DNA of 62,080 bases from a virus. Lineage: Duplodnaviria > Caudoviricetes. The notes beneath the pieces are model-generated. The model was not told the DNA's origin. It ran no database searches and was given only the letters and a program-made list of their open reading frames with translations. Each line of letters starts with the position of its first letter. Within the stretch, counting starts at the first letter, position 1. Of the stretch, positions 9,366-61,341 are shown piece by piece. The stretch is from positions 1 through 62,080 of the IMG/VR virus record IMGVR_UViG_3300031963_000147; one strand, given 5' to 3'. The position numbers and the translations under genes were made by a program.

Positions 9366-9373
9366 CAAATTTA
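9366..9373 (-). promoter_or_regulatory. Bacteroidota -7 promoter element upstream of the lysis genes
   Basis: TAAATTTG on the - strand (TAnnTTTG), 19 nt before the holin ATG. Confidence 0.55.
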
Positions 9374-24300: not shown

Positions 24301-24907
24301 GCGTAACCAAACGATCAATCTCCTCGTTGGCCTTGCGGATCTGTTCTCTCTGCTCGTTTACGGTAGGCGCCCATGCTCCGGGAACACCGGCATAGGAAAT
24401 AAACCTTTCCACTTCCTTCTGGCCTTTTGCCTCGAAGTTTGTCTTCAGGCTCATAGCGTTACTAGCGCCTATCTGAGCATTTTCGTACTGGTTGGCAAGC
24501 GCCTTAATTTCAGCCTGCTTCTGCTGGTATTGCTGTTCGCTGAATTTCCCCAGTTCATTCCTTCCCTCGGCTTTGTTTCGCGCAACAATCTTGTCCGCAT
24601 GACTAGCAATTTCTTCTCCACTCGGAATAGAAGGCTTTTGCGGCGCGTTTGAACCTTGACCAGACCCCGCCGCGCTGCCTGGTTCCGCCCCCTTTAGCTT
24701 TTCGACAAATGATTCGGGGGTGTGCGTGAATTTGTCCCCGTAGGCGTCTTTCATTACGCCGTATATCTTCTTTTGATATTCCGGATCATTGCTGATCTTT
24801 TCATCAAATGATTCAGGTGTATGGGTGAATTTGTCTCCATACGCTTCTTTCATAATACCATAAAGTTTTTGGCTGTATGGCTGTCCGGTTTCTACCTTTT
24901 TTCCCAT
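9371..24907 (-). CDS. Giant polyvalent virion cargo protein with DarB-like N6-adenine methyltransferase + SF2/SNF2 helicase and an HExxH zincin-like domain
   Basis: 5,178 aa. MTase motif I ILEGSVGSGRF (~18460) and motif IV ISNIPF (~18270); helicase HQKDAV, VGAGKT (~16390), IDESQEF (~15890), SGTPISN, QRNGRGIRQGN (~14670); LFHEAAH (~13375). Follows the muzzle and cargo genes. Confidence 0.88.
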   Translation of the reverse strand: MGKKVETGQPYSQKLYGIMKEAYGDKFTHTPESFDEKISNDPEYQKKIYGVMKDAYGDKFTHTPESFVEKLKGAEPGSAAGSGQGSNAPQKPSIPSGEEIASHADKIVARNKAEGRNELGKFSEQQYQQKQAEIKALANQYENAQIGASNAMSLKTNFEAKGQKEVERFISYAGVPGAWAPTVNEQREQIRKANEEIDRLVTPAKTWAESNTKKMGPIVNELAESMIGNDVGKFTMKSKSGHVVVNPEVVDEYATRQAAMYGLGENSSFKKLLYNTMIATVDMKMIEPRAKEIFSPYEKAFKKEVNADMDAKFTTDEAERLKYDAATGALFNQIQKQAESEALPVFEQQKKAKEQLQQQANALNAEYNARLEELNKQFQAGAIPLDQYKTTFDQIKNEGDAKIAEIQKASSTLYDQATTKLNEINSRYQNQYKQAAEALKKQADARIKQAEEKFLAEYQVSPEKAAEFSQKYSDAYKQAAEERMASMDATERQAFEAGLLTAPFAQLGRSFMNGFGGSLKALATSMDIPELEMYGDYLAQKNMVATPKSDKVSDLFDLKNLMTLTGQLGGGMTPSILASTTAAMTTGGLGMGASVQMLAASVAGFTAESADIAGRAYNDAFERSGGNVAKAKEAAQKSFDSQLDIMWAYAFEGLPFISKGLSMVPTVGGRMLVGGGIELSTELIQETLQNIAEKNISEGRNAWEMVDMTDGKVGTRPMNFGDFIKQAQDTFVPIAPVAILGMAGQVNSTGNKQEMVNAITAQASKDVLSNVIEGQSTQFVYNTVFNKGSKFTKAAIDNLFTSGQIDKAQRDGMIADVLQAEKYQEKAKALKLSPNDASIYSWISSRADEALAKAAQYADDPVLAKVFEEQAKDYQQQAADFINGKDPEFFSIKYADGSEYLFSTADAEQVFTNPDLVAQVATKRVRIAAFGKGAATMLNHLNEGIKGFFEKRKAAKAAVKPQATDSENTEEKPDVEALMNTPVESVESDEEKAKIIQQVQEGYIPEIEEVEEGKAPVNPQGPSMIAQPVFNPFSAVAREIEGNKTPDTSKTGEKIDTSAGNVDSIDTADKKADIESRRKDIISRKSTPQEKFEFLESIPEGTIFKNEDGDALIVRKKTTKRGTESYQLIPLFLNENDVWEENTSGIAITEKRANGEYNVNAALPQIFTSDVEVVLPTDAEYDAELAALEGKSTPATNEITNEDILRTASPIGRRLAEINNELSNLGYKFEVDMSGEEFNLVDSKGNIVDKEDIPDNINPLVQQFIDLASRLEGAIGDALTSDVANAGEKEFQGEEAQAEEVPAAQIESGNKNPAPINTKDVKIVPYVNDSKLHFNDVGLEVDARGGERDKIGTAGVFVKERIHQYADGRKEIHVGIMGKTAGRTTAAGVGIILPANASKSDAQKIARIVEGVYTEYVKKYAPEALTTAPQSQSPKALAPLADHLDELNANIQNALNAGKESKNASPKDKITQLVLDSPSKSIQATAWKEGIKENPDAAIKEIQEQIADNEKGVRKIIGDEAVDLINETYGRVKSAIREEETQETQDNEEQSEAIDERSIETVESDAESAIKEAGAARTPETVREALEKIEAQINAVGKKIKKLTEVYTTDDIDHEIPSYEIGKKAKREITSFMKDIAQMTGWEIGKNGVRANIAPAGGDVYVELSIPGTPLTLYAAFKYEPEYNRSYDNYTLSEIFYRVEDRTKKGRDQYVGPNQRINISGTGAPYGWGAPKSPAPTSKELATIFAKEAIPYVVDYINKNSPSQEVKDVQDLLSGEKTPQEVIKDIVEQSGIPAPNVVIGKMPKPQEKPAEKPTKRQERISKIKNKDLDDLWGELGNEMGNLNAGLNPKQLEIAVRIIAKYAELGILTFAEVAEDAVARMGEAIIPAMKAAYMSFKMTGATPEQKKQMDSESVVDEYEFNAEQNDQSGETINQDGRGAGGSDTGINAGAGTQGGERGSTTGGGKANENNGGSLSTIPGDVPADNAGTGGAGTGNTELVQPDRLDPDIQQNFVYPENWERTANKTFSKKQAYEDNIAALEIIDSLLDNPDQFATDEQKEALSKYNGLGPLSEILLDDDRERWNKSSLQFYDESRRIISLLDSIGKKTKTNPLATAKSSTRSAYYTSLPIIRAMWEGVTAAGFTGGRILEGSVGSGRFIGGMPKTTMSNSRITGVDMDVVSALVSKYLYPNSLIKNSPIERASLPSNSFDLFISNIPFGKQDIYDPVLDKKGGLWKASQKKLHTYFFAKAIDVVRPGGYIAILTTANTLDTRENQSTRDLILQTCEFVGAVRLGEQAFNADAGTQVVTDIILLRKRQEPIGLPSGEDHPISKIVKELAPHNKPDRPKQFIEYNEYFAKNKENVFGEKYLAGGLYSEDRGYTLTGAPEPEQVAAKLQELASKMPIQPYKHKEKEVDEILQMTPDGRMVSGGVIKKGGKYFTVIDYDKLQGVHNVVEITRLPPDKDRQTLDDFINLKNLYFDILSKDRASEDASAQRVEILDLLNSFVKRVKVQNITSLLSGRSVISQIIQKDPDAFAVLGLIRPDGKFADVVYKSAGADRPAFERTNNPADAIAYSINAFGHVNVPFVREVMDLSSDEEAVKAMGDLVFETPDGSVIEASEYLSGNVREKLDQANEWRKISSKYDRNAEALSKVIPDPIPAEDITFTLGAGWIPVNYYQSFLDVVFGSGKVKVTYSKATDKYNIVSSVVGGEYEALGEHGTKKQVGDVIEAAFTKKIGPYFMTNSRDDSKTPLPVLEQSVRDKVEKLQDAFSQLVVTDPTFKKELAEIYNRVFNGTVIKEYSGSTLTFPGLQGIELRPHQKDAVMLLVQKMGGMVDHIVGAGKTLVLGSAAIKMKQMGLVNKPVICTMKSVIPGMYKELTQAYPGLKILAPKETDFSAANRQRFFSQVANNDWDLVIISHENLGTLTLPPDFEEKYIQNEIEELMDAIAEIKGNSSGERDMFSKKQLKALQEKIENMTTKLNKLQDKGEYATKINMGDMGLDMLFIDESQEFKNLAFHTGMRNVSGLGNPAGSNKAANLKMICRYLQYIHSGDKGVCFASGTPISNSLTELYNIFQFIRPSLLKKLGMNSIDQFINTFGIVSATMEKNVAGVIKSKTRLNKFVNVTELATMYTEVSDIRAVHNLQLPRPKIKGGKPEVVLIKQSESQRAITDAIYEASRTGSVGPLLAVGIDVPDSWEKSLGINLTTLGSKASIDPRMVFPKMPEDGGKIQVAADKVYQHYIDSQDIKGTQLIFSDLGVPKDKAAPIGKRVYDEMVERMGEESIAEYSGADAIWKLKDRAQIKEALVTVFEMSPSEAESVIFQAEDTESFSVYAEMKKKLVRMGIPENEIAFIHDAPTKAKKEELFLKVNNGEVRVLIGSTKKMGTGVNVQRRVVAMHHLDAQWRPSDMEQRNGRGIRQGNMNEEVAIYYYGTEETIDAYRFGLLAKKQAGIDSFRAGGRGVREMDFEDGESMTLSEIAAAISGDTRLLDIEKLGGQIRKFENRIESAKRANALRDERIKNEKSSLNSYNRWIDISKEVAEIAKSTINNEGDRKIIEITVDENGKEKQKEITVPNFPVFTATVSGKQFDTKSTEQSKEFYKEIANRIKSLLDRGSIEVVKIGEIGGIEIVTSAPSNDKGYRSLYLEYKGKTIKTIVRSGREFEWWTILRAISSLRENVLEDINYYERVKSGIEKNIAEYEAQPDLVADPKDIEGLKQAKEKRDAILKELEEEEKAREERERNQGQNANPEEDLDDAAAEYQKATGDVATITDEKLRAQIDKVVSALKNVDPGARVVIHNDAESYASALEAMGEDPANADTSAAYDPISGEIHLNVNKIGDTTLFHEAAHPIMAIMIEMNPELLDGLYSQIESDPTLSKFVAFGSRYADPNQQKKEAVIEFLAAVAAGKLDGYKNTPLWDKIKAFFNSLIKFFTGKDTFEINLDNVSELKTFAGKFAEAVRTGTPVANSYQKVVRGGAEYQLSPEEQMMDKVRAAVVGAYNTGYSREDIIRLINEEPTVKQVIESQGTIQDFIDAALTVGPDPVESTKEQPVSGSVDYDFNISGSGDVREASVAGRAMRGMAEDALKQSIEKMGFDQYHVRTAYEADIIAQDFIDSVGMATAFKEAVVSRLVPDDIGAIVIAKAMMNPDMLGDTKAVPDLLRILSERGTNAGRGVNIYKYIYENYDIGFDIEKKFSEYRTASGDSNIPELVEKKWREYEEEMNSLREEIKQLAADKERLDAEVAISIIKENIARETSGRKLPQKEREKISDRIRKAKLARPDVFNSASPAVIAWDTAVEIVATTFDTTQSLAQAVKKGIDYLQNTEWYKSLNPEKKTEAIQKFADYYQEEGVPEPYMTDEGNLVIPNSFLRSLVAEGYETIEDITEQVRLVVDEAFPDYKFSEREVRDAITGYGRTIEMASDDISKALRKAKNIGRIISGLEDVQTGLSPLRSGLQREPTDPDIRLKMKELREAMKDLPVDQEASERQLKTALDAIKTRLTNAIQDIEREIETGMRIEKSKRGVAYDQTVKDLKERLAELRKERDALFGEEMSQSRRINAAIRLLDYAIESTQKALDSNDLKFKSKEKVSTPEIEAKREVLKALQARLKEARKEAGVIEAQRLANAKKNTEKLIQEYERRLREKDYAPKKRTPLVEDTELARKRARLRELKDKVDQDILDASLRNFKNSEARWNAFNEAWNLPKTVRASLEFSPILIQGGPLTMKYALTQQGELLQAIKQLGIAAANESTIKRIQNMVKDLPWYTEAMVAGLELSEFGGDISKAEEGFVFGALGHKIYDVPVGGAAKAIFGERVGERVKELNPMKVTERGASAYLNYLRIREYERGRKMLLARGYTIQNNKREFENLAKVINTYTGRGAVPGSPKYKAALTKGLSYLLFSAKNWSSVIKQTTPIGFIYFLQKTDMESGRPKLSVAQRVALENWLATYGTSAAFVLLFRSLFGGDDDDDKDGVSVSLDPRSSDFAKIKVGDTRVDPWGGRSQMLTFQARMYTQEIVNQYGETVEMGEYNEETGRANTNWLRLTYKLFQGKLHPTAAAILEKGMAEKNKYGQMIDEYGNPVLLKDQLTELFVPMYIASVVENYQEQSTELASVFTLIGSVGVSTNTYGGYTDMLKKETLKLEGKYLYENGGEEVPEGVKNMLQKKAEIIVKKKMRDGERRRRAQ

Positions 24908-46633: not shown

Positions 46634-46892
46634 TCTCTTCTGTGATGATTCCAATCAGCCCCAATTCATCCTGAAACAGCAGAAAATCTGCTCCGTCGAT
46701 CTGAATTTCCTGTCCTGTTCCCGATGGAAACAGAACGCGGTCTCCTACCTTGTAGTCATTGACTTCCGGACCAACACTGTAAACGTGCCCCAGACTTGGA
46801 GCCTTTTTAGATCCGTCCGGAATGTCAATTCCTATTTCACTGAGTGTTGGCTGAGGTGTGACCAGCACTTTTTTTCCTTTTACCTGTATCAT
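46605..46892 (-). CDS. groES: Co-chaperonin GroES
   Basis: KVLV...GIDIPD......G.VYSVGP.V...KVGDRVLF....G.EI.IDG..FL...E..LIGII. Confidence 0.92.
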   Translation of the reverse strand: MIQVKGKKVLVTPQPTLSEIGIDIPDGSKKAPSLGHVYSVGPEVNDYKVGDRVLFPSGTGQEIQIDGADFLLFQDELGLIGIITEENGQEPVQKN

Positions 46893-48469
46893 TTTTGATC
46901 GTTGTTTACAATAAGGGTGTCTGTGATTAAGAAAAGCGCCGCTACCGATGCTGCATTCTGCAAAGCTACTCGAAGCACTTTTGCTGGGTCAATAATTCCC
47001 AGTGAAGTGAGGTCTGAAACAAACCTTTTGGAGCGCATGTCGTAACCTTCATTCATTGCTGAAGGAAAACGCGGCGTATCTATTCCTCCGTTTGAAGTAT
47101 TCTTCATGTACGGAACCGCAAGAGCATTGTACACGATGTTTCTTCCCATGGATTCATCCACAGACAAATTGTTTTCTGATTGAAGGCATTCACGAAGAAT
47201 GAAGAACGTTGAACCTCCGCCTGGAAGATACCCTTCTTCAAATGCCGCCCGTGTAGCATTGATCGCGTCGTCTACGCGGTCAATTTTTTCGTTCAGTTCA
47301 CTACTGGTCTGTCCGCCGACTTTGAGAACGGCTACCTTACCAGACAAACGGGAAACCCGGTTTCTCATTTGATGATGTGTAGGAGAATCCCCGTCAATTT
47401 CAGCCATTTGCCGGCGAATACCGTTGATTCTTTCATCAGGATTTCCAGCACCTTCAAAAAGAATGGTGTTTTTCTCAGAAACCGTGACCTTTTTGACAAA
47501 TCCAAGTTTCTTGATGTCCTTTTGCGCCCGTTCTCCGGAATCTTTTGAATAGAAGTGTGCACCGGTGTACGCGCAAATATCCATGGCGATTTCCTTTCTC
47601 AAACTACCGTATTCCGGAAGCATCACTACGGATGCACGGATCAATCCTTTCAGGTGGTTGCCCAGAACTGTTGCCAGGGCCTCTCCTTCCATTCCGGAAC
47701 AAAAGAAGATGATTGGCTTGGGCTGCACTTCTTTCTCAGCAGCTTCTTTGATAACCGGCGTCAGGATGGATTCAATGTCAACGAATGAGTTGATGATTGA
47801 ATCTGTGACAAAAACGTAACAGTTTTCGGCTTCAAACGTTTGCTTTTGCTCGTTGTTTACCAGTTGAAAATGGAACCATCCGGACCCTACTTTCATGCCG
47901 GAAACAATTTCGGTGTACGTTTTTGTCGTTTCAGACGGCTCGTAAGCGACTTCTCCGCCCTTACCAACCGACCAGAACGCCTTTCCGATCAATTCCCCAA
48001 GCTCCCGATCATTGTTTGCTGATATGGTGGCAATATCAATCAGTTGTTTTTCCGTTTCGATCTGCATAGATGATTCAGAAATAGCCTTCACCACACGATC
48101 AACCGCATCTTCAATTCCGGACTTGACAAATACCGGTGAAGCACCTTCAGAGATCATCTTAAATCCTTCTTCAATGATGGCGTGTGTCAGCACGCAAGCC
48201 GTTGTGGTTCCGTCTCCGGCCATGTTCACTGTTTTTACGGCTGCTTCTTTAATGATAAGCGCTCCTTGATTTTCCGCGTGGTCCGCAAGCTCGATATGAC
48301 GAGCAACAGTCACCCCGTCTTTTGTGTTTTTGGGAACGCCGGCAGGCATTTCTATTACCACGTTTCTTCCTGCAGCACCAAGCGTGCTACCAACGGCAGT
48401 GGCTACCGTTTTCATTCCGGAGAACAGCTTTTTTTTGGCTTCTACGGAGAACAATACTGTTTTGCTCAT
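46889..48469 (-). CDS. groEL: Chaperonin GroEL
   Basis: TLG..GRNV, TKDGVTVA, AGDGTTT, TISAN, KVGG....E...K.DRVDDA..AT.AA.EEG..PGGG, GIIDPAKV.R.ALQNA; no GGM tail. Confidence 0.97.
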   Translation of the reverse strand: MSKTVLFSVEAKKKLFSGMKTVATAVGSTLGAAGRNVVIEMPAGVPKNTKDGVTVARHIELADHAENQGALIIKEAAVKTVNMAGDGTTTACVLTHAIIEEGFKMISEGASPVFVKSGIEDAVDRVVKAISESSMQIETEKQLIDIATISANNDRELGELIGKAFWSVGKGGEVAYEPSETTKTYTEIVSGMKVGSGWFHFQLVNNEQKQTFEAENCYVFVTDSIINSFVDIESILTPVIKEAAEKEVQPKPIIFFCSGMEGEALATVLGNHLKGLIRASVVMLPEYGSLRKEIAMDICAYTGAHFYSKDSGERAQKDIKKLGFVKKVTVSEKNTILFEGAGNPDERINGIRRQMAEIDGDSPTHHQMRNRVSRLSGKVAVLKVGGQTSSELNEKIDRVDDAINATRAAFEEGYLPGGGSTFFILRECLQSENNLSVDESMGRNIVYNALAVPYMKNTSNGGIDTPRFPSAMNEGYDMRSKRFVSDLTSLGIIDPAKVLRVALQNAASVAALFLITDTLIVNNDQK

Positions 48470-51864: not shown

Positions 51865-52524
51865 ATGACAGCAAGAGCCCCAGAACAAAGCGAAATAATC
51901 GCTCGAATCTGCCACCAAACCAACAAGGCATGGTGTGAAGCAAATGGAGATTTTACCCAAAAAGACTGGGAAAATGCCGAACAATGGCAACGAGACAGCG
52001 CCATTAAAGGCGTTGAATTCAGAATCCAAAACCCAGATTCCGGACCAGACGCTCAACACAACGCCTGGATGAAGGAAAAAACAGAACAGGGATGGATATT
52101 CGGAGAAACAAAAGACGCCGAAGCAAAAACTCACCCGTGCATTATCCCATACGAGCAGCTCCCCGAATTCCAAAGAAAAAAAGACGCCCTCTTCTGTGCC
52201 ATCGTAGACGCATTGAAATTTGAAATCAAAAGCCCCAAAAACAAAAACTTTGGAGAAGCACTCAAAGCTATTCAATCAGGAAAACGAATCGCCAGAGAAG
52301 GATGGAATGGAAAAGGAATGTTCGCCGTACTCTCTCCCGGAAAAAAGGACAACCCAAGTGAAAACTTCTGGAACGAGCACCTGAAAAAATATGCTCAGCT
52401 CACAGGAGGAACAATGACCGTCCGACCAGCATTTATGCTCAAAACAGCGCAGGAAGATGTCGCATATTGGACGCCATCAACAAGTGACATCCTCGCCGAA
52501 GACTGGATCATCCTGGAAGATTAA
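51865..52524 (+). CDS. RyR-domain + DUF2829 (Tad2-like) fusion protein
   Basis: N-terminal HNAWM.EK...GW.FG..KD...KTHPCI.PY..LP..Q..KD (RyR repeat); C-terminal NFGEAL....SGKRIAR.GWNGKGMF...W.PS..D.LAEDW (DUF2829/Tad2). Confidence 0.85.
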   Translation: MTARAPEQSEIIARICHQTNKAWCEANGDFTQKDWENAEQWQRDSAIKGVEFRIQNPDSGPDAQHNAWMKEKTEQGWIFGETKDAEAKTHPCIIPYEQLPEFQRKKDALFCAIVDALKFEIKSPKNKNFGEALKAIQSGKRIAREGWNGKGMFAVLSPGKKDNPSENFWNEHLKKYAQLTGGTMTVRPAFMLKTAQEDVAYWTPSTSDILAEDWIILED

Positions 52525-52568
52525 ACCCTACATTTGTTTCGGCTAATAAGTGCTCAAGCCAAAAAAAG

Positions 52569-52604
52569 AAGCCCCAACGATTTTAAAGTCAACGGGGCTT
52601 TTTT
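52569..52604 (+). terminator. Intrinsic terminator
   Basis: AAGCCCC-N18-GGGGCTTTTTT. Confidence 0.7.
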
Positions 52605-52650
52605 ACCTTTACACCCTCAATAACAACACAATAAATACCCAACAATCAAA

Positions 52651-53058: not shown

Positions 53059-53085
53059 CACCACATCCACTCTCCAATAACCCCC

Positions 53086-53114
53086 AAAAGAGCCCCAAAA
53101 AGGCTCTTTTTTTT
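53086..53114 (+). terminator. Intrinsic terminator
   Basis: AAAAGAGCC-CCAAAAA-GGCTCTTTTTTTT. Confidence 0.7.
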
Positions 53115-53531
53115 ATCCCATAACCCAAGCCACCACCCACAATTTCAAAACCCCTAAAAACAACCCCAAAACAGCACACAACCACAACCCTAAACCCTAA
53201 CCAAAACCCAAAAACCAAAATAATAGTAACCAGGAAGAACGGAGCAGGCCCACCCCCTATCGCCGATTCCCGCATTTTGGAAAACGGATTTTTACGGATG
53301 GGGTGGGTTCGTTCGGTTCATTTTCGTTTTCAGGGTCGATTTTGGCAGGTCGATCATCTGCTGTTTGGAAAGGTGAAGTCAGGATCGAGGCATCGTGTTG
53401 CAAAATGGATGATCGAGGGGCAAATACGTCGTCTGCCTGCGCTGAAGGTGTGTTAATGATCGCTGATGACAGGGTAAAAAACGCACAAATGGGGCAAAAT
53501 AGCGCTGCATCTATCTGTCCTTCAATGCGTT

Positions 53532-53603
53532 GTAGCAATTGCTACCAATTGCTAGCATTTGCTACGTTTGCTAGGATTTGCTACGATTTTCTAGCAATTG
53601 CCA
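53532..53603. repeat. Helically phased TTGCTA array with a 14-bp palindrome
   Basis: TTGCTA at 53539, 53549, 53559, 53568 and 53578, variants at 53588 and 53598; GTAGCAATTGCTAC palindrome at 53532-53545. Confidence 0.8.
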
Positions 53604-53707
53604 CAATACACGGCAGCACACCGCCACCGCCACCGGCGAATCAGCCGAAGCAGCCCCCAAACACACCGCTAAACACAGCCAGAATTTCACCACCAAGCCA
53701 CAAAACA

Positions 53708-54052
53708 CAACGCGCTGGTAATCAACCAAAACACACCGCACAACAGCCCCGAATTATTGTATTCCCAGACAAATAAACCCAAAACATAACTGCCTGATCC
53801 TCAGATTCACCTTCCATTTTGCCCCCGACTGAAGACCAAAAAATCATTGGAAACCTAACCACACAACACAACACAACGCTGCAAATTCAGTCAAGAGCCT
53901 GGAATTCAGTACTTTATATGATCGTGAAAATCTCATGCATCTACACAATAAAATGATACTGAAAATCAATGTGTTAGGGGGTGCAATTTTTTGTTATGCG
54001 TGCATAATTCTTTAAAATCTATTCTCGTAAGTGCTTGATTTTATTGGTGTTT
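53708..54052. repeat. Five dispersed copies of a spaced palindrome YAA-N5-TGR-N3-TCA-N5-TTA
   Basis: Copies start at 53708, 53787, 53892 (complete), 53952 and 54028; several are partial. Confidence 0.55.
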
Positions 54053-54276
54053 ATTGTTGCGCGCGGGAATGTATTATAATTTTTTTGGTTGTGTGATAAA
54101 AACGGCTTCGCCGTTGGTGTGTGTGTTGTTGTATGAGTGTTGATAGCCTTTGGTATGAATCAAGTTTGGGCGCTTTTTTCCGGCCTATTTCGCATAAATC
54201 AGGTTTGGGCACTACCTTCTGAATCCCTTGTCAACAGCGGATTTAACAAAATAAATCTACGATATTTAAAAATAAA

Positions 54277-54309
54277 TTTGGAATAAGTATCTAAATCGTT
54301 GTAGTATTG
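54277..54309 (+). promoter_or_regulatory. Putative early promoter (-33/-7)
   Basis: TTTG (54277-54280), 21 nt, then TAGTATTG (54302-54309); an overlapping TAAATTTG at 54273-54280. Confidence 0.5.
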
Positions 54310-54334
54310 TCGGCAGATTTCAAACACACAAACT

Positions 54335-54526
54335 ATGTTCAAAACTTCTTCAAACAAAATCGCATCAGCCGCCTTCTGTGTGGCTGTTTTCTGCGTGGCC
54401 TGCTTCGTAGGCATTATGTGCTACGGCATGGCGACAGACGTTCGCATGAATTACCCGATGGGGTATTCCCTCACCGCAGGCGCTTCGCTCCTGTTGGTTG
54501 TTCTGTATTCTATCCGTCCTCGTTAA
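54335..54526 (+). CDS. Small two-TM membrane protein
   Basis: 63 aa, two hydrophobic helices; first gene after the promoter. Confidence 0.6.
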   Translation: MFKTSSNKIASAAFCVAVFCVACFVGIMCYGMATDVRMNYPMGYSLTAGASLLLVVLYSIRPR

Positions 54527-54544
54527 CTCTCTAAATCAAGCACA

Positions 54545-55000
54545 ATGAACACACAAGGACAGCAAATCTTTTTCGTCACCATCTTCAATGAGGACGGCAC
54601 ACAGAACACTGTGACATGCACTAGGAATGAATTCGCTAAAGTTGCATGGGACAACACGCTGTGCGAGCGCCGCTACACTGTGAGCAATGGCAATGAGCAG
54701 GATAATTACCCTCAATCAATCATGGAACGCATAGTGAACGACGGCTGCGTAGATGCTGCTACCATGAATTTCGGATGCGACGCTATTGCCGACCTGTATA
54801 GCATGATCGAGACTATTGGCATGGGATTCCACCCCGACACACCATTCGCCGACTATGTTACATACACCGGAAATCCTACCTTCACTACTGAAGAAGTTGA
54901 GAGGCTGAGCGCCATGCTTCAGGGCTGCTTCGATGAATTAGGCGACGATGTTTACAGCATCTGTATTAGCCTGAACGATCTAATCAACGCGGCAGAATAA
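54545..55000 (+). CDS. Hypothetical early protein
   Basis: 151 aa, acidic; GFHPDTPF.DY motif. Confidence 0.75.
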   Translation: MNTQGQQIFFVTIFNEDGTQNTVTCTRNEFAKVAWDNTLCERRYTVSNGNEQDNYPQSIMERIVNDGCVDAATMNFGCDAIADLYSMIETIGMGFHPDTPFADYVTYTGNPTFTTEEVERLSAMLQGCFDELGDDVYSICISLNDLINAAE

Positions 55001-55019
55001 TCCCCTAAACCACGTACTA

Positions 55020-55340
55020 ATGAGCAGAATCGACCAATTCGAAGATATGTTAGAGACATGGGTTTCTAACCACGCAGCCGACATGCTTGGCTGTGAGATC
55101 CTCAAATCAACGCTTCCTGAGACCAATCCTGAGCAGACCGATGATATGGCGCTTACAATAGTTTCGGTGACTGTTCCTGAATCAGAGATCAATCGCATTA
55201 ACGACGCAATGGACGCTGATTATAACGGGTTTTGCGCCTTGTTCATTGAGGCGGAAGAGTTTCATTTTATGTGGGAAAAGTCGGTTTTAATAGATACTGA
55301 ATCCTGCACTATCACATTCGACGTTCAATATTTCATCTAA
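55020..55340 (+). CDS. Highly acidic hypothetical protein
   Basis: 106 aa, D/E-rich with few K/R. Confidence 0.7.
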   Translation: MSRIDQFEDMLETWVSNHAADMLGCEILKSTLPETNPEQTDDMALTIVSVTVPESEINRINDAMDADYNGFCALFIEAEEFHFMWEKSVLIDTESCTITFDVQYFI

Positions 55341-55353
55341 CACACAACACAAC

Positions 55354-55632
55354 ATGTACACACAAGCACAATTTTTTCTCGGTGAATCAGCCATTTATCA
55401 GGGCATTCACAACAGCACGCAGTCATGGAATGGCTTTGCTTGCCCCGCATTCGATCTGCCTACCGTTAAGCAGATGATGAGAGACGGGTATATTCAGGGC
55501 ATTGAAACAGCAATGGTTGATGGCGTTGAGCGCGTCTACTTCGAATCGGTTGAGACCTGCCCCATACAGCACGAAGGAGTGAATTATTACCATATCGGAT
55601 TCGACGAATTGACATGGGAAATTGAAGAATAG
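55354..55632 (+). CDS. Hypothetical early protein
   Basis: 92 aa; WNGFACP.F motif. Confidence 0.75.
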   Translation: MYTQAQFFLGESAIYQGIHNSTQSWNGFACPAFDLPTVKQMMRDGYIQGIETAMVDGVERVYFESVETCPIQHEGVNYYHIGFDELTWEIEE

Positions 55633-55647
55633 CGCCTCCCACATTCA

Positions 55648-55697
55648 GGCCGCCGCCCCGCGTTTAACTGTGACAAGTTGCGCGGGGATTGGCGGTT
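55648..55697 (+). other. Conserved structured intergenic hairpin, copy 1
   Basis: GGCCGCC-G-CCCCGCG..TAACT-GTGACA-AGTTG-CGCGGGG-ATT-GGCGGTT. Confidence 0.8.
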
Positions 55698-55710
55698 AAA
55701 AACACACACA

Positions 55711-56763
55711 ATGAATACTACTATTAATCAAGAAAAAGGCTTTGAAAACGCCTATTACATTCTCAATTCCGACAACAAGGTAGAGCTGCATTTGAGTGGG
55801 TTAGAATCCTACCGCTCTTTATCTGAAACAGCCAAGACAGCCGTAAAACGAGCGTTTGTATGGGGTAGACAGCGCGGCGCTTGGGTGTCACGCTCAAAAG
55901 ACAGTGGAATACCGTATTCAATGAAGCACTACGGAATTCCTTTCCACGGAGAGCAAGAGCGCACAACCTACGAGGATGCGCGTGAGCGCAGAATAGAGAA
56001 GGCTGAACATAAGGCTGAACGCCACGAAGAATGGGCGGCGGCACGCGAAAGAAACGCCGTAAGCCTTCAGTCTGAATTCAACAAACTGCGTAAAGACTGG
56101 GCGTGGCTTACACAGCCAAACGTAAACACTTCGGGCGGCCGATCATTCACCAATAGTCGCAATAGCGTTATAGCAAGATACGACAAAGGCTTTGAGGAAA
56201 TGAAAGCCGCACAAAGACATGAAGAAAGAGCCGCTCACTTTCTTAAAATCGCATCTGAATCAGAACTGAAGTCGGAGAGTTATCTTATAAATCGGGTCAA
56301 AGAGAATGAGAAAAACGTGCGTGAATTTGCTCGGTTTACCGAAAACTATTCGGACAGACTGGAAACTATTGACGAGCAAAGCGACGATTGGAAGATTTGG
56401 TTAAAGGCTCGGATGAATTTTTACCAAACATGTTTTGAAAAACTAGAGTTCTTCATTTCTGCTTTGCGCGAATTGACGGCGCAGAAAAAAGAGGCGGGAG
56501 TTATGTGTGCGGAAGATATTCAGGAAAAGGTAGCAGGAAACGTAAAAGGAGATGTTAAGAAGTACCTGAAGGAAAAATACGGGGTGGACTTGGTTTCTTT
56601 TTCAAAAGCCTTTGGAGTAGGCGTAAATACATACTACTACATCAAGACGAAACAGCCGCTTCCGCTGGAATACCATTCGGGATGGGCTTCTGACTGCTCC
56701 GCGCAGATACGTCTTGCAAAAATTATAGCTGACATGGACGCGTTCAATCAGCAAAAAGCGTAA
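55711..56763 (+). CDS. DUF3560-like domain protein (start ATG 55711)
   Basis: ERR..KAE..AER....A......QP....S.GR.F...R......Y.KG.E....A.....RA...Y...R..E.E pattern; ACACACA-ATG start context. Confidence 0.65.
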   Translation: MNTTINQEKGFENAYYILNSDNKVELHLSGLESYRSLSETAKTAVKRAFVWGRQRGAWVSRSKDSGIPYSMKHYGIPFHGEQERTTYEDARERRIEKAEHKAERHEEWAAARERNAVSLQSEFNKLRKDWAWLTQPNVNTSGGRSFTNSRNSVIARYDKGFEEMKAAQRHEERAAHFLKIASESELKSESYLINRVKENEKNVREFARFTENYSDRLETIDEQSDDWKIWLKARMNFYQTCFEKLEFFISALRELTAQKKEAGVMCAEDIQEKVAGNVKGDVKKYLKEKYGVDLVSFSKAFGVGVNTYYYIKTKQPLPLEYHSGWASDCSAQIRLAKIIADMDAFNQQKA

Positions 56764-56777
56764 TACGTTTGATTAAG

Positions 56778-56825
56778 GCCGCCGCCCCGCTGTTAGGTTG
56801 AAACCTGAAGCGGGGATTTGGCGGC
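56778..56825 (+). other. Conserved structured intergenic hairpin, copy 2
   Basis: GCCGCC-G-CCCCGCT-G-TTAGG-TTGAAA-CCTGA-AGCGGGG-ATTT-GGCGGC. Confidence 0.8.
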
Positions 56826-56850
56826 AGAAACAAACAAATACACAAACACA

Positions 56851-57489
56851 ATGGCAACAAAAACACACCGCATGAGCATCGACGACTTGGCAGATGCTTA
56901 TCACCTCCAGTTAATCCACGCAGCAACCGAAAAAACCGTTCGCGGGTTCGGGCTTCCCTCCATGAATTCACCGAAGCATGTCATCGGCTTCAAGTCCTAC
57001 GAGCAGGCCGTGCAGTTTGTGAAGGAATGGGGCGGCGTCATATCGCTCTATGAACGCAGAGACGGAGCCAGCATGTACACGAACAGAGGGGAGCAGAACC
57101 GCGCACTGACGTATGAAGATTACCTTCAGGACGCTGGCGACAATTACCGCGTGTACGCGAATACCGCAGAAGACATTCAGGCGCGGAAAGAACATCTTCT
57201 CATATTGCTTGAAGAAGAAGACTTCGCGGGCGTATCAGATTACATTCTGCAGGCTGAAGAACTTGTGCGTGCCGCTGAAAATCTTCCTGACGAGGACTTC
57301 GTTTGCATCGCCAAGTATTCGCCGAGTAAATCAGATGCCGGAAACAATTTGTTTCCATGGGTATTTCATGTCTACATGCCACACGAGACAATGACCTACA
57401 AAGAAGACGTTACCACATACTATGTAGGCGTTGATCTTACCGACGTAGAGTTTGATGAATTCGGCGAAGAAGAGGAGGCAGAAGTATGA
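56851..57489 (+). CDS. Acidic hypothetical early protein (start ATG 56851)
   Basis: 212 aa; AAACACA-ATG context; acidic tail. Confidence 0.7.
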   Translation: MATKTHRMSIDDLADAYHLQLIHAATEKTVRGFGLPSMNSPKHVIGFKSYEQAVQFVKEWGGVISLYERRDGASMYTNRGEQNRALTYEDYLQDAGDNYRVYANTAEDIQARKEHLLILLEEEDFAGVSDYILQAEELVRAAENLPDEDFVCIAKYSPSKSDAGNNLFPWVFHVYMPHETMTYKEDVTTYYVGVDLTDVEFDEFGEEEEAEV

Positions 57490-57558
57490 CCAAAACAATC
57501 GACTGTTCAAACCCTAACCATTCAATAGTTTCAATAACCGTTTATCTCAATTAATCCG

Positions 57559-57702
57559 ATGAAAAAGAAACCCATATCATTCCTGCCCGAATCAGATCCG
57601 CGCAACAATACCATTGCGATGATCGAGGGCATAATGTTCCTTGCAATGGTGGCCGGAGCTGCCATTGCCCTGATCGGTTGCCTTATCTGGCAGCCATCGT
57701 AA
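57559..57702 (+). CDS. Small single-TM protein (47 aa, not in the ORF track)
   Basis: MKKKPISFLPESDPRNNTIAMIEGIMFLAMVAGAAIALIGCLIWQPS. Confidence 0.55.
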   Translation: MKKKPISFLPESDPRNNTIAMIEGIMFLAMVAGAAIALIGCLIWQPS

Positions 57703-57721
57703 GACTGTTTGTGTGTTAATC

Positions 57722-57768
57722 TGCACCGCCCCGCTGCCTGGCTGATACCAAGCGCGGGGATTGGTGTA
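57722..57768 (+). other. Conserved structured intergenic hairpin, copy 3
   Basis: TGCACC-G-CCCCGC..TGG-CTGATA-CCA..GCGGGG-ATT-GGTGTA; compensatory change in the lower stem. Confidence 0.75.
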
Positions 57769-57960
57769 TAGAGACGACGGTATAAATCAATGAATTAACC
57801 CTAATTAGCCGTTATCCTATAAATTAGCCGGATAGCTCATGAAGCAGGGAAAGCCTAGCATAACCACATCCGTATGAACGGACATTAAGTTATGGAAGGC
57901 AGCCGTAATTCATTGAATAACCGTAAATTGTGCCTATAAACCTCAATAAATTAACAGAAA

Positions 57961-58242
57961 ATGGAAACATCGCTGACTTTCACTGCTCGAAAAAAGCATT
58001 CGATGGTAGTTTATGAAGGAGAAATTGAATTTGACAAGGTATATTCCTACGAACTGGAAGCGAAGGTATCTTTAGACGGTCAACTAGCCGAAGCTAGTTT
58101 ATACGTCCGGAATGTGTGGGAAAAAGGCAGCGATCCGGAAGAGGATTCGGTAGGGGATGCTGTTTTCAAAATTGAGGAGGCAATAAAACGTGCGTTTATC
58201 AAGGCAAGAGTTAAAGAAGCAACACAAGCCGCGCAGCCATGA
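57961..58242 (+). CDS. Hypothetical protein
   Basis: 93 aa, ATG start, ATGA-coupled to the next gene. Confidence 0.65.
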   Translation: METSLTFTARKKHSMVVYEGEIEFDKVYSYELEAKVSLDGQLAEASLYVRNVWEKGSDPEEDSVGDAVFKIEEAIKRAFIKARVKEATQAAQP

Positions 58243-58484: not shown

Positions 58485-58671
58485 GTTCAGAAAGTTTGCC
58501 ACAGATGAGCAAATTTTAGAATGTCTCATTTTATTTGAGACTCGTAAAATGGACGCGGCTAAACTATTGTCTGCATACGTCGCGCCTAAGTGGGGAATAA
58601 CCACACTAGAAGCCGTTGCCTTTCTTAAGAAAATGGCAGAAGAATTAAATCAACCAACATCAATAATTTAA
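58468..58671 (+). CDS. Hypothetical protein
   Basis: 67-aa ORF in a packed run. Confidence 0.6.
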   Translation: MKATNEFRKFATDEQILECLILFETRKMDAAKLLSAYVAPKWGITTLEAVAFLKKMAEELNQPTSII

Positions 58672-58876
58672 GACAATGAGCCATACGATTGAAGTAAAAC
58701 ATATTAATAAAGATAGAATCAGTATTCTTGGAAAAGAATATTGCTCAGAAGAATATTTGATAGAAATGATGCGAAGGGAATACTTAAGAGGCAGAGAAGA
58801 AGGAAGTCGTATTCATATTGCTCAAATACAATCTTGCTCAAATTGTGCAACCCAACATCAATAATTTAAGACAATG
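58654..58876 (+). repeat. 25-bp direct repeat CCAACATCAATAATTTAAGACAATG
   Basis: Identical at 58654-58678 and 58852-58876; each copy ends in a start codon. Confidence 0.9.
58676..58864 (+). CDS. Hypothetical protein bracketed by direct repeats
   Basis: 62 aa. Confidence 0.55.
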   Translation: MSHTIEVKHINKDRISILGKEYCSEEYLIEMMRREYLRGREEGSRIHIAQIQSCSNCATQHQ

Positions 58877-61088: not shown

Positions 61089-61341
61089 CCTGGTTCAGAA
61101 CCTTCGCTTTGAGGAAGTCCGGGGCTTTTTATTGCCCCGGCTTTCTTACAGTTCTCAGGGATGCAGATATTACCACGCACGAAACCTTTCTGTGTTTTCA
61201 ATCTGGAAGCACGAGGTAAGGACCAAGTTAGGTGATGAGTGCCGGTATGAAATCATCCAACAAACCAAGCATCATCAATTTGAAATTAAACTCTTATCAG
61301 AAAATGGTACAGATCAACAACAGGCCGCACAAGAAGTCTGA
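61081..61341 (+). CDS. Hypothetical protein (start ATG 61081)
   Basis: 86 aa, overlapping the ATPase stop. Confidence 0.5.
   Translation: MNNLVQNLRFEEVRGFLLPRLSYSSQGCRYYHARNLSVFSIWKHEVRTKLGDECRYEIIQQTKHHQFEIKLLSENGTDQQQAAQEV

What the first reader, a model, noticed from the sequence alone, without database searches (positions are those of the whole stretch)
55648..57768. Three-copy covarying structured motif (G/AUU internal loop, NUGANA apical loop) punctuating the early gene run
Seen: three intergenic copies (55648-55697, 56778-56825, 57722-57768), each 14-19 nt after a stop codon, share one architecture. A lower stem (CGCC/GGCG twice, CACC/GGTG in copy 3, a compensatory change) is followed by a single G opposite AUU(U), an invariant CCCCGC/GCGGGG stem, a short upper stem whose sequence differs entirely between copies yet still pairs (TAACT/AGTTG, TTAGG/CCTGA, TGG/CCA), and a loop GUGACA / UUGAAA / CUGAUA (consensus NUGANA). 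Every copy uses G-U wobbles that work only on the + strand, and none has a U tract, so they are not intrinsic terminators. Inference: a selected single-stranded (probably RNA) motif that I cannot assign to a known family. Candidate roles are a boxB/put-like antitermination signal, T7-style RNase III processing or stabilising sites, a protein-binding element, or an attC-like recombination site for shuffling early gene cassettes.
Basis: partly seen in the sequence, partly recalled or inferred. Interest (0 to 1): 0.85.

Follow-up and report, generated by a model that had tools for sequence, protein, structure and literature searches.

The report
Conserved hairpin between phage gene cassettes
The three hairpins are real copies of a previously undescribed, widely shared structured element that sits between small genes in the early operons of phages of Flavobacterium-like bacteria and marks the points where such genes are swapped between phages.

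Summary
The window has exactly three co-oriented copies of a two-tier bulged hairpin (55648-55697, 56778-56825, 57722-57768), each followed by an A-rich tail. None occurs in shuffled sequence and nothing in Rfam matches.

They belong to a larger family. A covariance model finds the element in 50 other viral or metagenomic stretches, often 2-4 copies each. It almost always lies a few bases after a stop codon and 2-26 nt before the next ATG, on the strand of the flanking genes. Both stems covary. U-G and G-U wobbles favour the gene strand. The NUGANA loop is only a subfamily trait. The most conserved part is the 3' half, GGGG-(A/C/U)UU-(U)GGYGGUA-N-AAA.

Close relatives and population contigs keep the hairpin while the genes on either side are replaced, inserted or lost. 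It therefore acts as a cassette joint.

It is not a canonical terminator: these exist nearby with U tracts. It is not the host-type promoter either: it has no TAnnTTTG. It is not an attC, nut, Rfam or GenBank-phage match.

Best reading (0.42): an intercistronic RNA punctuation element in early polycistronic mRNA, acting in attenuation, processing or 3'-end protection and supplying a Shine-Dalgarno-less leader. Its conservation makes it a PeSL-like recombination joint. No RNA data exist, so the molecular function is inferred.

The parts
55648..55705 (+). Copy 1: two-tier hairpin 55648-55697 plus A-rich tail to 55705. Lies between ORF 55354-55632 and ORF 55711-56763.
   Evidence: Pattern match. 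Fold -32.1 kcal/mol. CM hit 55645-55705, 55.2 bits. It is an island of 92% identity in relative L122 between unrelated flanks. Population contigs diverge at 55652 and at 55704/55706.
56778..56833 (+). Copy 2: hairpin 56778-56825 plus tail. Lies between ORF 55711-56763 and ORF 56851-57489.
   Evidence: Pattern match. Fold -34.3 kcal/mol, z -5.93. CM hit 56774-56833, 68.6 bits. Homology with L122 resumes at 56757, just before it. A contig in run X9 runs on unlike before 56779.
57722..57777 (+). Copy 3: hairpin 57722-57768 plus tail. Follows the 47-aa ORF 57559-57702 and is followed by about 190 nt of non-coding DNA before ORF 57961-58242.
   Evidence: Pattern match. Fold -28.7 kcal/mol. CM hit 57718-57777, 56.4 bits. 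The lower stem carries double (compensatory) changes relative to copies 1 and 2.
54273..54280 (+). Candidate host-type -7 promoter box (TAAATTTG) in the 378-nt gap 53957-54334. It may start the transcription unit 54335-57702 that carries the three copies.
   Evidence: TANNTTTG scan. Gap sequence. Consensus taken from passages of PMC7366714. This is an inference, not a measurement.
52565..52605 (+). Canonical hairpin plus U-tract terminator upstream in the same + strand gene run. It serves as a contrast to the motif. Coordinates are approximate.
   Evidence: Seen in the fold of the intergenic stretch 52525-52650; coordinates read by eye from that fold. A second one at 53086-53110 plus its T run is listed.

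Best explanation
The three elements belong to a conserved family of intercistronic punctuation hairpins. The family is found in the early, same-strand operons of phages of Bacteroidota, probably hosts like Flavobacteriia.

The element is transcribed as part of a polycistronic early mRNA. The + strand folds into a lower stem (CCRCC/GGYGG), a 2-3 nt 3'-side bulge ((A/C/U)UU), a C-run/G-run middle stem and a variable apex. An A-rich tail follows and runs into the next start codon.

I infer three things about its action:
- The hairpin marks cistron boundaries at the RNA level. It may weakly attenuate or pause transcription, be cut at or beside the bulge, or protect the 3' end of the upstream cistron.
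- The unstructured tail supplies the adenine-rich, Shine-Dalgarno-less leader of the next cistron.
- The same roughly 50 nt recur beside unrelated genes, so they also serve as patches of homology. Small accessory-gene cassettes are exchanged, inserted and lost at these patches, as at the PeSL elements of T4-like phages.

Shown: the family, its structure and covariation, its fixed position between stop and start, and its place at mosaic breakpoints. Inferred: that it acts as RNA, and which RNA-level step it controls.
For: 1. Family. CM R1 gives full-length hits at E<=1e-3 in 23 of 56 stretches, 8 of 13 and 19 of 72. Several stretches carry multiple co-oriented copies: L045 has 3, L058 has 3, L194 has 4 and L200 has 3.

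2. Structure. Of the cells in the model's 13 pairs, 88.7% (24 distinct sequences), 90.2% (16 distinct) and 94.7% (16 distinct) form standard pairs. Covariation scores are 0.169, 0.262 and 0.326 against shuffled means of 0.064, 0.147 and 0.149, with 0 of 500 shuffles as high. Structures slid by 1-3 columns reach at most 54.9%, 64.3% and 56.5% paired. The third set was ascertained only through a 3'-side 15-mer, so its 5' half is an unbiased test.

3. Strand. In that third set, one pair reads CG 10, UG 6, other 0. Another reads GU 8, AU 7, other 1. Wobbles are tolerated on the gene strand, where the other strand would have A-C mismatches. All hits point the same way as the flanking ORFs.

4. Position. 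The element starts -4 to 24 nt after an upstream stop in 47 of 50 hits. It ends 2-26 nt before a downstream ATG in 47 of 50 (near-identical contigs included). Downstream ORFs of different groups are not homologous.

5. Not a start or end signal of the usual kind. Canonical U-tract terminators lie in the same gene run. In the 96%-complete record behind L030 and in L045, a -7-box-like promoter region (preceded in L045 by a U-tract terminator) comes before the first early ORF, and the motif follows that ORF.

6. The tail fits the Bacteroidota leader rule of adenines at -3, -6 and -11 to -15 (passages of PMC7366714). Only 5 of 42 ORFs in the window have a Shine-Dalgarno-like word.

7. Joint. In L122 the gene between copies 1 and 2 is replaced by two other ORFs, while copy 1 survives as a 92% island. 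L021 against L008 shows a 68-aa ORF cassette inserted right after the motif. L045 has two extra ORF-plus-motif units relative to L011. In runs X8, X9 and X10, contigs match only 55652-55704/55706 and run on into one other upstream and two other downstream sequences.

8. Host. TerL matches 87 GenBank phage records, 86 of them phages of Flavobacterium, Cellulophaga, Tenacibaculum or Maribacter, at about 26% identity in the listed rows.
Against: - No RNA data exist, so expression, ends and cleavage are unknown.
- The energy difference between strands is weak. The + strand is more stable in only 24 of 42 distinct members (mean -24.7 against -22.8 kcal/mol). Window copy 3 folds better on the - strand. 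A DNA-level or single-stranded-DNA role is therefore not excluded.
- A generic boundary hairpin would not need the conserved bulge, the invariant CC/GG pairs and the conserved GGYGGUA. These point to a specific binding partner that this reading does not name.
- Short-form relatives have only about 13-15 base pairs, which is short for a classical RNase III site (substrate length recalled).
- Only 3 of the 7 gene junctions of the putative unit 54335-57702 carry the element, so it is not needed at every boundary.
- The alignments were fitted to the model, and the shuffles ignore relatedness. The covariation statistics therefore overstate significance.
- The conservation could partly reflect recent spread by recombination rather than function.
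Confidence: 0.42

Rival explanations
1. Composite terminator/promoter cassette in the strict PeSL sense. The hairpin attenuates upstream transcription, and the tail (TA-N-AAA), with the TGA-containing loop in one subfamily, is a promoter that gives very short leaders.
For: PeSLs have this make-up and the same position from stop codon to ATG (passages of PMC2839356; abstract of PMC4122927). By my own count on sequences printed, the distance from the loop TGA to the tail TA is nearly constant (24-27 nt), while the 5' distance varies (2-9 nt). The single copy in the 96%-complete 28-kb record lies at the late-to-early module border.
Against: The motif holds no TAnnTTTG -7 box (consensus from PMC7366714). 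The sigma-70-type scan lists no site at the three copies. The hexamer spacing would be 19-21 nt by my count. The TGA loop is absent from many members. In L030 and L045 a -7-box-like promoter region already stands upstream of the first early ORF, before the motif.
Confidence: 0.12
2. Cis-acting antitermination or elongation-control RNA, nut/put-like in function. The hairpin, placed after the first early gene(s), binds RNA polymerase or a phage or host factor and lets transcription read through downstream terminators.
For: In L030 and L045 the motif sits just after the first early ORF and before the replication genes. This is the place of nutR/tR1 in lambda (recalled). The conserved bulge and neighbouring pairs suggest a specific partner. 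No + strand TAnnTTTG box lies downstream of copy 3 up to 62 kb, so the later genes may depend on read-through.
Against: Up to 3-4 copies occur within about 1-3 kb, which is redundant for such a site. No conserved box lies upstream of the hairpin and no loop is conserved. In the window the first copy lies 1.4 kb and four ORFs downstream of the candidate promoter.
Confidence: 0.12
3. Operator for a translational repressor or a target for a specific endoribonuclease (phage or host). It would shut off or time the expression of the accessory early genes beside it.
For: Sequence-level conservation of the 3' half next to the translation start region. Strict placement 2-26 nt before ATG in 47 of 50 hits.
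Against: No shared neighbouring protein was seen. Window ORFs against 24 motif-bearing stretches gave only a DnaB match. The ORFs upstream of the motif in the window and in L030 are unrelated. The fuller co-occurrence analysis failed when the script machine was lost.
Confidence: 0.1
4. A selfish or neutral palindromic repeat (REP/MITE-like). It spreads by recombination and has no function for the phage beyond being a patch of homology.
For: Mosaic breakpoints lie at the element. Hairpins with the same CCCCGC...GCGGGGATT core occur in 84 of 401 genomes of one sampled phylum, that of a MAG titled Bacteroidetes. These include other multi-copy repeat families (15, 8 and 4 matches in single genomes) that lack the lower stem and tail.
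Against: Covariation keeps both stems over divergent members. Orientation and distances to stop and start are fixed. Copy numbers are low, at 1-4 per record.
Confidence: 0.08
5. Folded single-stranded DNA site for a dedicated recombinase (attC-like or IS200/REP-like) that moves the cassettes.
For: The layout resembles an attC: outer stem, unpaired bases on one strand, inner stem, variable apex. ORF-plus-site units are co-oriented, and the number of units varies. Clusters of attC sites without an integrase have been reported in virulent phages, including a Polaribacter phage (passages of PMC9892861).
Against: The R' box GTTRRRY and its partner are not conserved; the 3' half reads GGYGGUA in most members. 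No tyrosine recombinase (PF00589) and no Y1 transposase (PF01797) was found in 5 of 5 records, one of them 96% complete. The breakpoints seen fit plain homologous exchange.
Confidence: 0.05
6. RNA anti-CRISPR (a solitary repeat mimic) that soaks up a host Cas6-type enzyme.
For: Racrs are solitary hairpin repeats in viral intergenic regions (abstract and passages of PMC10651486). The inner hairpin with an A-rich 3' flank recalls some class 1 repeats. That resemblance is recalled and was not tested.
Against: No matching repeat array was found. The strict pattern gave no multi-match arrays in genome contigs. Rfam gave no hit at E<=10. The outer stem, long variable apex and fixed stop-to-start placement are not repeat-like. 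The inner stem covaries freely.
Confidence: 0.04

Closest known systems
PeSL (promoter-early stem-loop) cassettes of T4-like phages (PMC2839356, PMC4122927)
   Same: Both are short repeated intergenic elements that fill the space from a stop codon to the next ATG. Both contain a G+C-rich stem-loop, flank small orphan genes in plastic early regions, and lie at insertion, deletion and replacement boundaries between close relatives.
   Different: The conserved part of a PeSL is a sigma-70 consensus promoter plus a Shine-Dalgarno site. Here no host-type promoter box is present. The conserved part is a two-tier bulged hairpin with covarying stems and a Shine-Dalgarno-less A-rich tail. The family also crosses unrelated phage types, from a 28-kb record that is 96% complete to this roughly 100-kb phage.
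RNase III processing sites of the T7 early region (recalled, no call)
   Same: Both are intercistronic in an early polycistronic mRNA. Both are bipartite helices interrupted by an asymmetric internal loop or bulge, occur in several related copies per genome, and have no U tract. The window copies have 18-20 predicted base pairs.
   Different: Cleavage is untested. Short-form relatives have only about 13-15 pairs. Sequence conservation is stronger than RNase III is known to need. There is no sequence relation.
Morons and boundary sequences of lambdoid phages (recalled, no call)
   Same: Both concern accessory genes inserted between neighbours as self-contained units, and short conserved sequences at module joints.
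   Different: Morons carry their own promoter and U-tract terminator. Here the units share one conserved structured element and appear to lie inside an operon.
Integron attC sites and CALINs in phages (PMC9892861)
   Same: Both are imperfect hairpins with unpaired bases on one strand and a variable apex. Both form ORF-plus-site units in one orientation.
   Different: R-box consensus is absent and no integrase was found. The conserved bases lie in the inner stem and 3' half, not at a crossover box.
Lambda nut and HK022 put antitermination RNAs (recalled, no call)
   Same: Both are hairpin RNAs inside early operons, found after the first early gene in the small relatives.
   Different: There is no boxA-like conserved flank and no conserved loop. 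Up to four copies occur close together. The element is a single two-tier hairpin.

Membership tests
PeSL (T4-like phages) | Repeated element that fills the gap from an upstream stop to the downstream ATG, with a stable G+C-rich stem-loop | tested here: met
   47 of 50 hits start -4 to 24 nt after a stop, and 47 of 50 end 2-26 nt before an ATG.
PeSL (T4-like phages) | Contains a consensus early promoter of the host's primary sigma factor | tested here: not met
   No TANNTTTG inside any of the three elements. No sigma-70-type site at them. Promoter activity itself is not testable here.
PeSL (T4-like phages) | Lies at insertion, deletion or replacement boundaries between closely related phages | tested here: met
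   L122 against the window. L021/L008 and L011/L045. Contigs of runs X8-X10.
Intrinsic (Rho-independent) terminator | G+C-rich hairpin directly followed by a U tract | tested here: not met
   The 3' flanks are (A/C/U)UU followed by GGYGG. The copies are not listed by the terminator scan, which does list canonical sites at 53086 and 61119. A further one lies in 52525-52650.
T7-type RNase III site | About two turns of helix with an internal loop, cleaved by RNase III | tested here: inconclusive
   Helix length is met in the window copies at 18-20 pairs and not in short-form relatives at 13-15 pairs. Cleavage is not testable with these tools.
Lambda nut site | Conserved boxA next to a short boxB hairpin with a conserved pentaloop | tested here: not met
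   The 5' flank and the apical loop are not conserved in the alignments. The definition of the boxes is recalled.
Integron attC | R''/R' boxes (GTTRRRY at the 3' end) forming the outer stem | tested here: not met
   The outer stem is CCRCC/GGYGG in most members. Consensus taken from PMC9892861. The attC covariance model was not available.
Integron attC | An integron integrase (tyrosine recombinase) in the element or host | tested here: not met
   PF00589 is absent from 5 of 5 virus records, one 96% complete. The control rang in 14 of 14 genomes. Host genomes were not tested.
REP/RAYT or IS200/IS605 ends | A Y1 (HUH) transposase that recognises the hairpin | tested here: not met
   PF01797 is absent from 5 of 5 records. 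Host genomes were not tested.
RNA anti-CRISPR (Racr / solitary repeat unit) | Sequence and fold similar to a CRISPR repeat of the host | not tested
   No repeat library was on hand. Indirect evidence only: no Rfam hit at E<=10, and no arrays among 55 genome stretches with the strict pattern.
Any Rfam 15 family | Score at or above the family's gathering threshold | tested here: not met
   0 matches in the whole window. Of 2 matches at E<=10 in 55600-57850, neither lies on a hairpin.

The most novel reading that the evidence does not exclude
The element is the recombination site of an integron-like cassette system of phages. The folded gene-strand hairpin, with its one-sided bulge and variable apex, would be recognised by a recombinase not yet identified, possibly host-encoded. 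That enzyme would excise and insert ORF-plus-hairpin units. This would explain both the strict architecture and the varying number of units between relatives.
Probability: 0.05. Interest if true: 0.9.

Novelty: new variant of a known kind. Interest (0 to 1): 0.6.

Why it matters
Almost nothing is known about how phages of Bacteroidota organise and regulate early transcripts. These hosts do not use Shine-Dalgarno sites, and their RNA processing is poorly mapped.

This work provides a conserved, covarying element found in 50 viral or metagenomic stretches beside the window, from several phage types. It gives a concrete handle: a defined RNA to test for cleavage, attenuation or factor binding in a Flavobacterium model.

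The element marks where accessory genes are exchanged. This window has a Tad2-like anti-defence gene in the same gene run. The element could therefore serve as a marker for finding hypervariable accessory-gene cassettes in metagenomic phage genomes. It also extends the PeSL idea of regulatory repeats as engines of modular shuffling beyond T4-like phages.

Tried and rejected
Relatives by protein. The search for related loci with the 350-aa ORF between copies 1 and 2, and with the 442-aa ATPase-like ORF, found no relative in viral contigs. blastn of 55300-58000 and of two motif copies against GenBank phages gave no match.

Pattern scans.
- The strict pattern in genome contigs gave 55 stretches, each with one match. 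They came from many phyla, mostly G+C-rich. By eye most look like coding or chance hairpins without the outer stem and tail. I did not run the CM on these 55.
- Of the 80 metagenome stretches, I passed only 6 to the CM: L058, L059, L073, L089, L099 and L122. I chose them because, 39 showed an outer stem.
Its hits are mostly chance: 53 of the 72 new stretches had no CM hit at E<=1e-3.

Host genomes. CM R1 found nothing in one genome labelled Bacteroidetes or in 151 genomes of its phylum. Only a few candidates per genome were scored, so this is a weak blank and I do not use it as evidence.

Crass-like reading. I first took the 5178-aa ORF for a crAss-like virion RNA polymerase and considered N4-like hairpin promoters. 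Pfam shows only methylase and helicase domains. Passages of the phi14:2 preprint say that early transcripts there share no upstream motif. I dropped this line.

Expression. No RNA holder was listed.

Energy asymmetry between strands was tried as a test of an RNA role and proved weak. A shared upstream protein was tried and not found. RNAalifold on the model-fitted alignments recovered only the inner stem.

Supplementary files of the papers were not opened. Those of the PeSL and Racr papers may list motifs that bear on the comparison.


Full report
WHAT IS THERE. The window is a linear viral record of 62,080 bases, estimated to be 61% complete. The pattern CCGCCCCGC-N(10-30)-GCGGGGATT occurs three times, all on the + strand, at 55653-55690, 56782-56818 and 57726-57762. 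It occurs in none of 100 shuffles.

- an outer stem of 7-8 pairs;
- a 2-3 nt bulge on the 3' side, which can also be drawn as G opposite AUU;
- the stem CCCCGC/GCGGGG;
- an upper stem that differs between copies but pairs;
- a six-base loop with UGA.

The energies are -32.1, -34.3 and -28.7 kcal/mol (z -3.85 to -5.93). The hairpins start 15, 14 and 19 nt after stop codons. Copies 1 and 2 end 13 and 25 nt before the next ATG. Copy 3 is followed by about 190 nt without an ORF. No copy has a U tract. A covariance model (R1) run without filters finds only these three in the window. Rfam has nothing, either at gathering scores for the whole window or at E<=10 around the copies.

THE PHAGE AND ITS HOST. 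The - strand carries a large terminase, a GroEL and a 5178-aa ORF with methylase- and helicase-like domains. The + strand run from 49.9 kb carries an RNase H-like exonuclease, a Tad2-like protein and many small ORFs without family. The terminase matches 87 GenBank phage records, 86 of which infect Flavobacterium, Cellulophaga, Tenacibaculum or Maribacter, at about 26% identity in the listed rows. Only 5 of 42 ORFs of 120 aa or more have a Shine-Dalgarno-like word upstream. This fits what is written about Bacteroidetes mRNAs (passages of PMC7366714). A Bacteroidota host is therefore likely but not shown.

A FAMILY, NOT THREE DUPLICATES. Scans of public contigs with the strict pattern brought near-identical relatives (L073, L099, L122). 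They also brought unrelated viral contigs with the same core, an outer stem of different sequence and the same kind of tail.

R1 then found full-length matches at E<=1e-3 in three sets:
- 23 of 56 stretches. These 56 were all 50 viral stretches plus 6 of the 80 metagenome stretches, picked by eye.
- 8 of 13 stretches found with a 3'-half pattern.
- 19 of 72 stretches found with a bare 3'-side 15-mer.

Many stretches hold several co-oriented copies: L045 three, L058 three, L194 four, L200 three.

In the more distant members the inner stem itself changes: CCCCCCG/CGGGGGG, CCCCGG/CCGGGG, CCCCAG/CUGGGG, GCCGCGC/GCGCGGU. The apex ranges from a 9-nt loop to a 20-nt stem-loop. The UGA loop is common in one subfamily and absent from many others. 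What stays is the 3' half GGGG-(A/C/U)UU-(U)GGYGGUA-N-AAA and the ability of the 5' half to pair with it.

Pair counts on three model-fitted alignments give 88.7%, 90.2% and 94.7% of cells paired. Covariation scores were reached by 0 of 500 shuffles. Structures slid by 1-3 columns reach at most 54.9%, 64.3% and 56.5% paired. The first alignment is blurred because copies with a 2-nt bulge are one column out of register. Two caveats apply: the alignments lean towards the model, and the shuffles ignore relatedness. The third set is the cleanest test, because only its 3' strand was used to find it.

WHICH STRAND. Minimum free energies do not settle it. The + strand is the more stable in only 24 of 42 distinct members, and window copy 3 folds better on the - strand. 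The wobble pattern does lean one way. In the third set one pair reads CG 10, UG 6 and no mismatch. Another reads GU 8, AU 7 and one mismatch. On the other strand these would be A-C mismatches. Every hit also points the same way as its flanking ORFs. I take this as moderate support for a role of the gene strand as a single strand. That strand is most simply the mRNA, though single-stranded DNA is not excluded.

WHERE IT SITS. In 50 hits (32 and 18, near-identical contigs included), the model match starts -4 to 24 nt after the stop of an upstream ORF in 47. It ends 2-26 nt before a downstream ATG in 47. The exceptions are window copy 3, two copies at contig ends and three with longer gaps. The downstream ORFs of different contig groups are unrelated. 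So are the upstream ORFs of the window and of L030.

The same + strand run of the window has ordinary terminators with U tracts (52525-52650, 53086-53118, 61119-61150). The motif is therefore not this system's normal terminator. The host-type -7 box TAnnTTTG occurs in the gap before the unit that carries the copies (54273-54280) but not inside any copy.

In L030 the record is 96% complete, 28 kb, and has a single copy. There a stretch resembling the -33/-7 promoter (read by eye) precedes the first early ORF, and the motif follows that ORF, ahead of the replication genes. L045 shows a U-tract terminator, an AT-rich stretch holding a near-match to the -7 box (one mismatch, read by eye), a first small ORF and then three ORF-plus-motif units. 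The element thus lies inside early transcription units, at cistron boundaries.

MOSAIC JOINTS. L122 is about 92-97% identical to the window in shared segments. It keeps copy 1 as a 100-nt island of 92% identity (55630-55725) between unrelated sequence. It has two other ORFs (78 and 427 aa) in place of the 350-aa ORF between copies 1 and 2, and it resumes homology at 56757. Among the short-form phages, L021 differs from L008 by a 68-aa ORF inserted directly after the motif and by a replaced segment directly before it. L045 has two extra ORF-plus-motif units relative to L011.

Contigs of three other DNA runs (X8, X9, X10) match only 55652-55704/55706. They continue into one other upstream and two other downstream sequences. 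Summed contig depth peaks at that bin, and contigs break at 55658-55681 as at a repeat. The element is therefore a point of exchange for small gene cassettes. This is the behaviour described for PeSL elements of T4-like phages (passages of PMC2839356; abstract of PMC4122927).

No tyrosine recombinase and no Y1 transposase is encoded in five motif-bearing records. The attC R box is not conserved (for the consensus). Plain homologous recombination is thus the simplest mechanism.

WHAT IT PROBABLY DOES. I commit, at 0.42, to an RNA-level punctuation role. The hairpin forms in the early polycistronic transcript at selected cistron boundaries. The inner hairpin followed by (A/C/U)UU resembles a truncated host-type terminator. 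CCCCGC...GCGGGGATT hairpins, often extended to AAT...ATT palindromes, occur in 84 of 401 genomes of the sampled phylum. I read this as a sign of weak attenuation or pausing. The one-sided bulge in a bipartite helix is the layout of the T7 early RNase III sites (recalled). Cleavage there would leave a protective 3' hairpin on the upstream cistron. The tail places adenines where Bacteroidetes leaders are enriched for them.

None of these steps is measured. The conserved bulge and GGYGGUA argue for a specific partner that I cannot name. For that reason the antitermination and operator rivals each keep about a tenth of the probability.

COMPARISON AND NOVELTY. The element works like a PeSL in its position and its evolutionary effect. 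It fails the PeSL membership test on the promoter, and it differs in having a conserved, covarying two-tier hairpin.

It is in no Rfam family and in no GenBank phage searched. Two full-text searches did not turn up a description of it: 'Flavobacterium phage / intergenic / stem-loop / early genes' and 'bacteriophage / intercistronic / conserved hairpin / gene cassettes / mosaic'. I read only the listings of these. That is a limited search, not proof of absence from print.

I rate it a new variant of a known kind, with interest 0.6. It is real, widespread and testable, but its mechanism is open.

Noticed in passing
window 53539-53606 (and 54140-54158): Four to five tandem copies of a unit of about 10-19 nt (TTGCTAGCAT-like), spaced 10-20 nt apart. 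They lie inside or beside ORF 53303-53776. They look like iterons, so this may be an origin or an operator (family D1).
   Followed up: no
window 57925-57959, 58642-58676, 58840-58874: A second repeated leader, different from the hairpin motif, lies directly upstream of three small ORFs that follow copy 3 (family D2). No + strand TAnnTTTG box lies downstream of 56771, so how these genes are transcribed is unclear.
   Followed up: partly
window 51865-52524 (+): A 219-aa protein with a RyR domain and a Tad2-like (Thoeris anti-defence 2) domain (E 5e-23). It lies in the same + strand gene run as the hairpins.
   Followed up: no
window 9371-24907 (-): A single 5178-aa ORF with weak Eco57I-type methylase and SNF2/helicase domain matches. 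It is a giant multi-domain protein, not an evident virion RNA polymerase.
   Followed up: partly
window 46889-48469 (-): A phage-encoded GroEL-type chaperonin (PHROG 5725, E 3e-121) lies next to the structural genes.
   Followed up: no
window 53059-53302: After a canonical terminator comes a stretch of about 150 nt made almost only of C and A. It is very poor in G and T, and is predicted to be unstructured.
   Followed up: no
whole window: TANNTTTG occurs 26 times against 41.6 expected (all 100 shuffles have at least 26). Several matches lie just upstream of gene starts, as expected if the word is a real promoter box that is avoided elsewhere.
   Followed up: no
G058, G328, G167 and G172 (loci L208-L212): Genomes of the sampled phylum, that of a MAG titled Bacteroidetes, hold other multi-copy repeat families built round the same CCCCGC-loop-GCGGGGATT hairpin (15, 8, 4 and 3 matches per genome). 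They have different flanks and lack the phage element's outer stem and tail.
   Followed up: partly
window 56764-56771: A TAnnTTTG word (TACGTTTG) lies right between the stop of the 350-aa ORF and copy 2. It is not kept in the close relative L122 or in a contig of run X9, where the first base differs. It is probably a chance match.
   Followed up: yes
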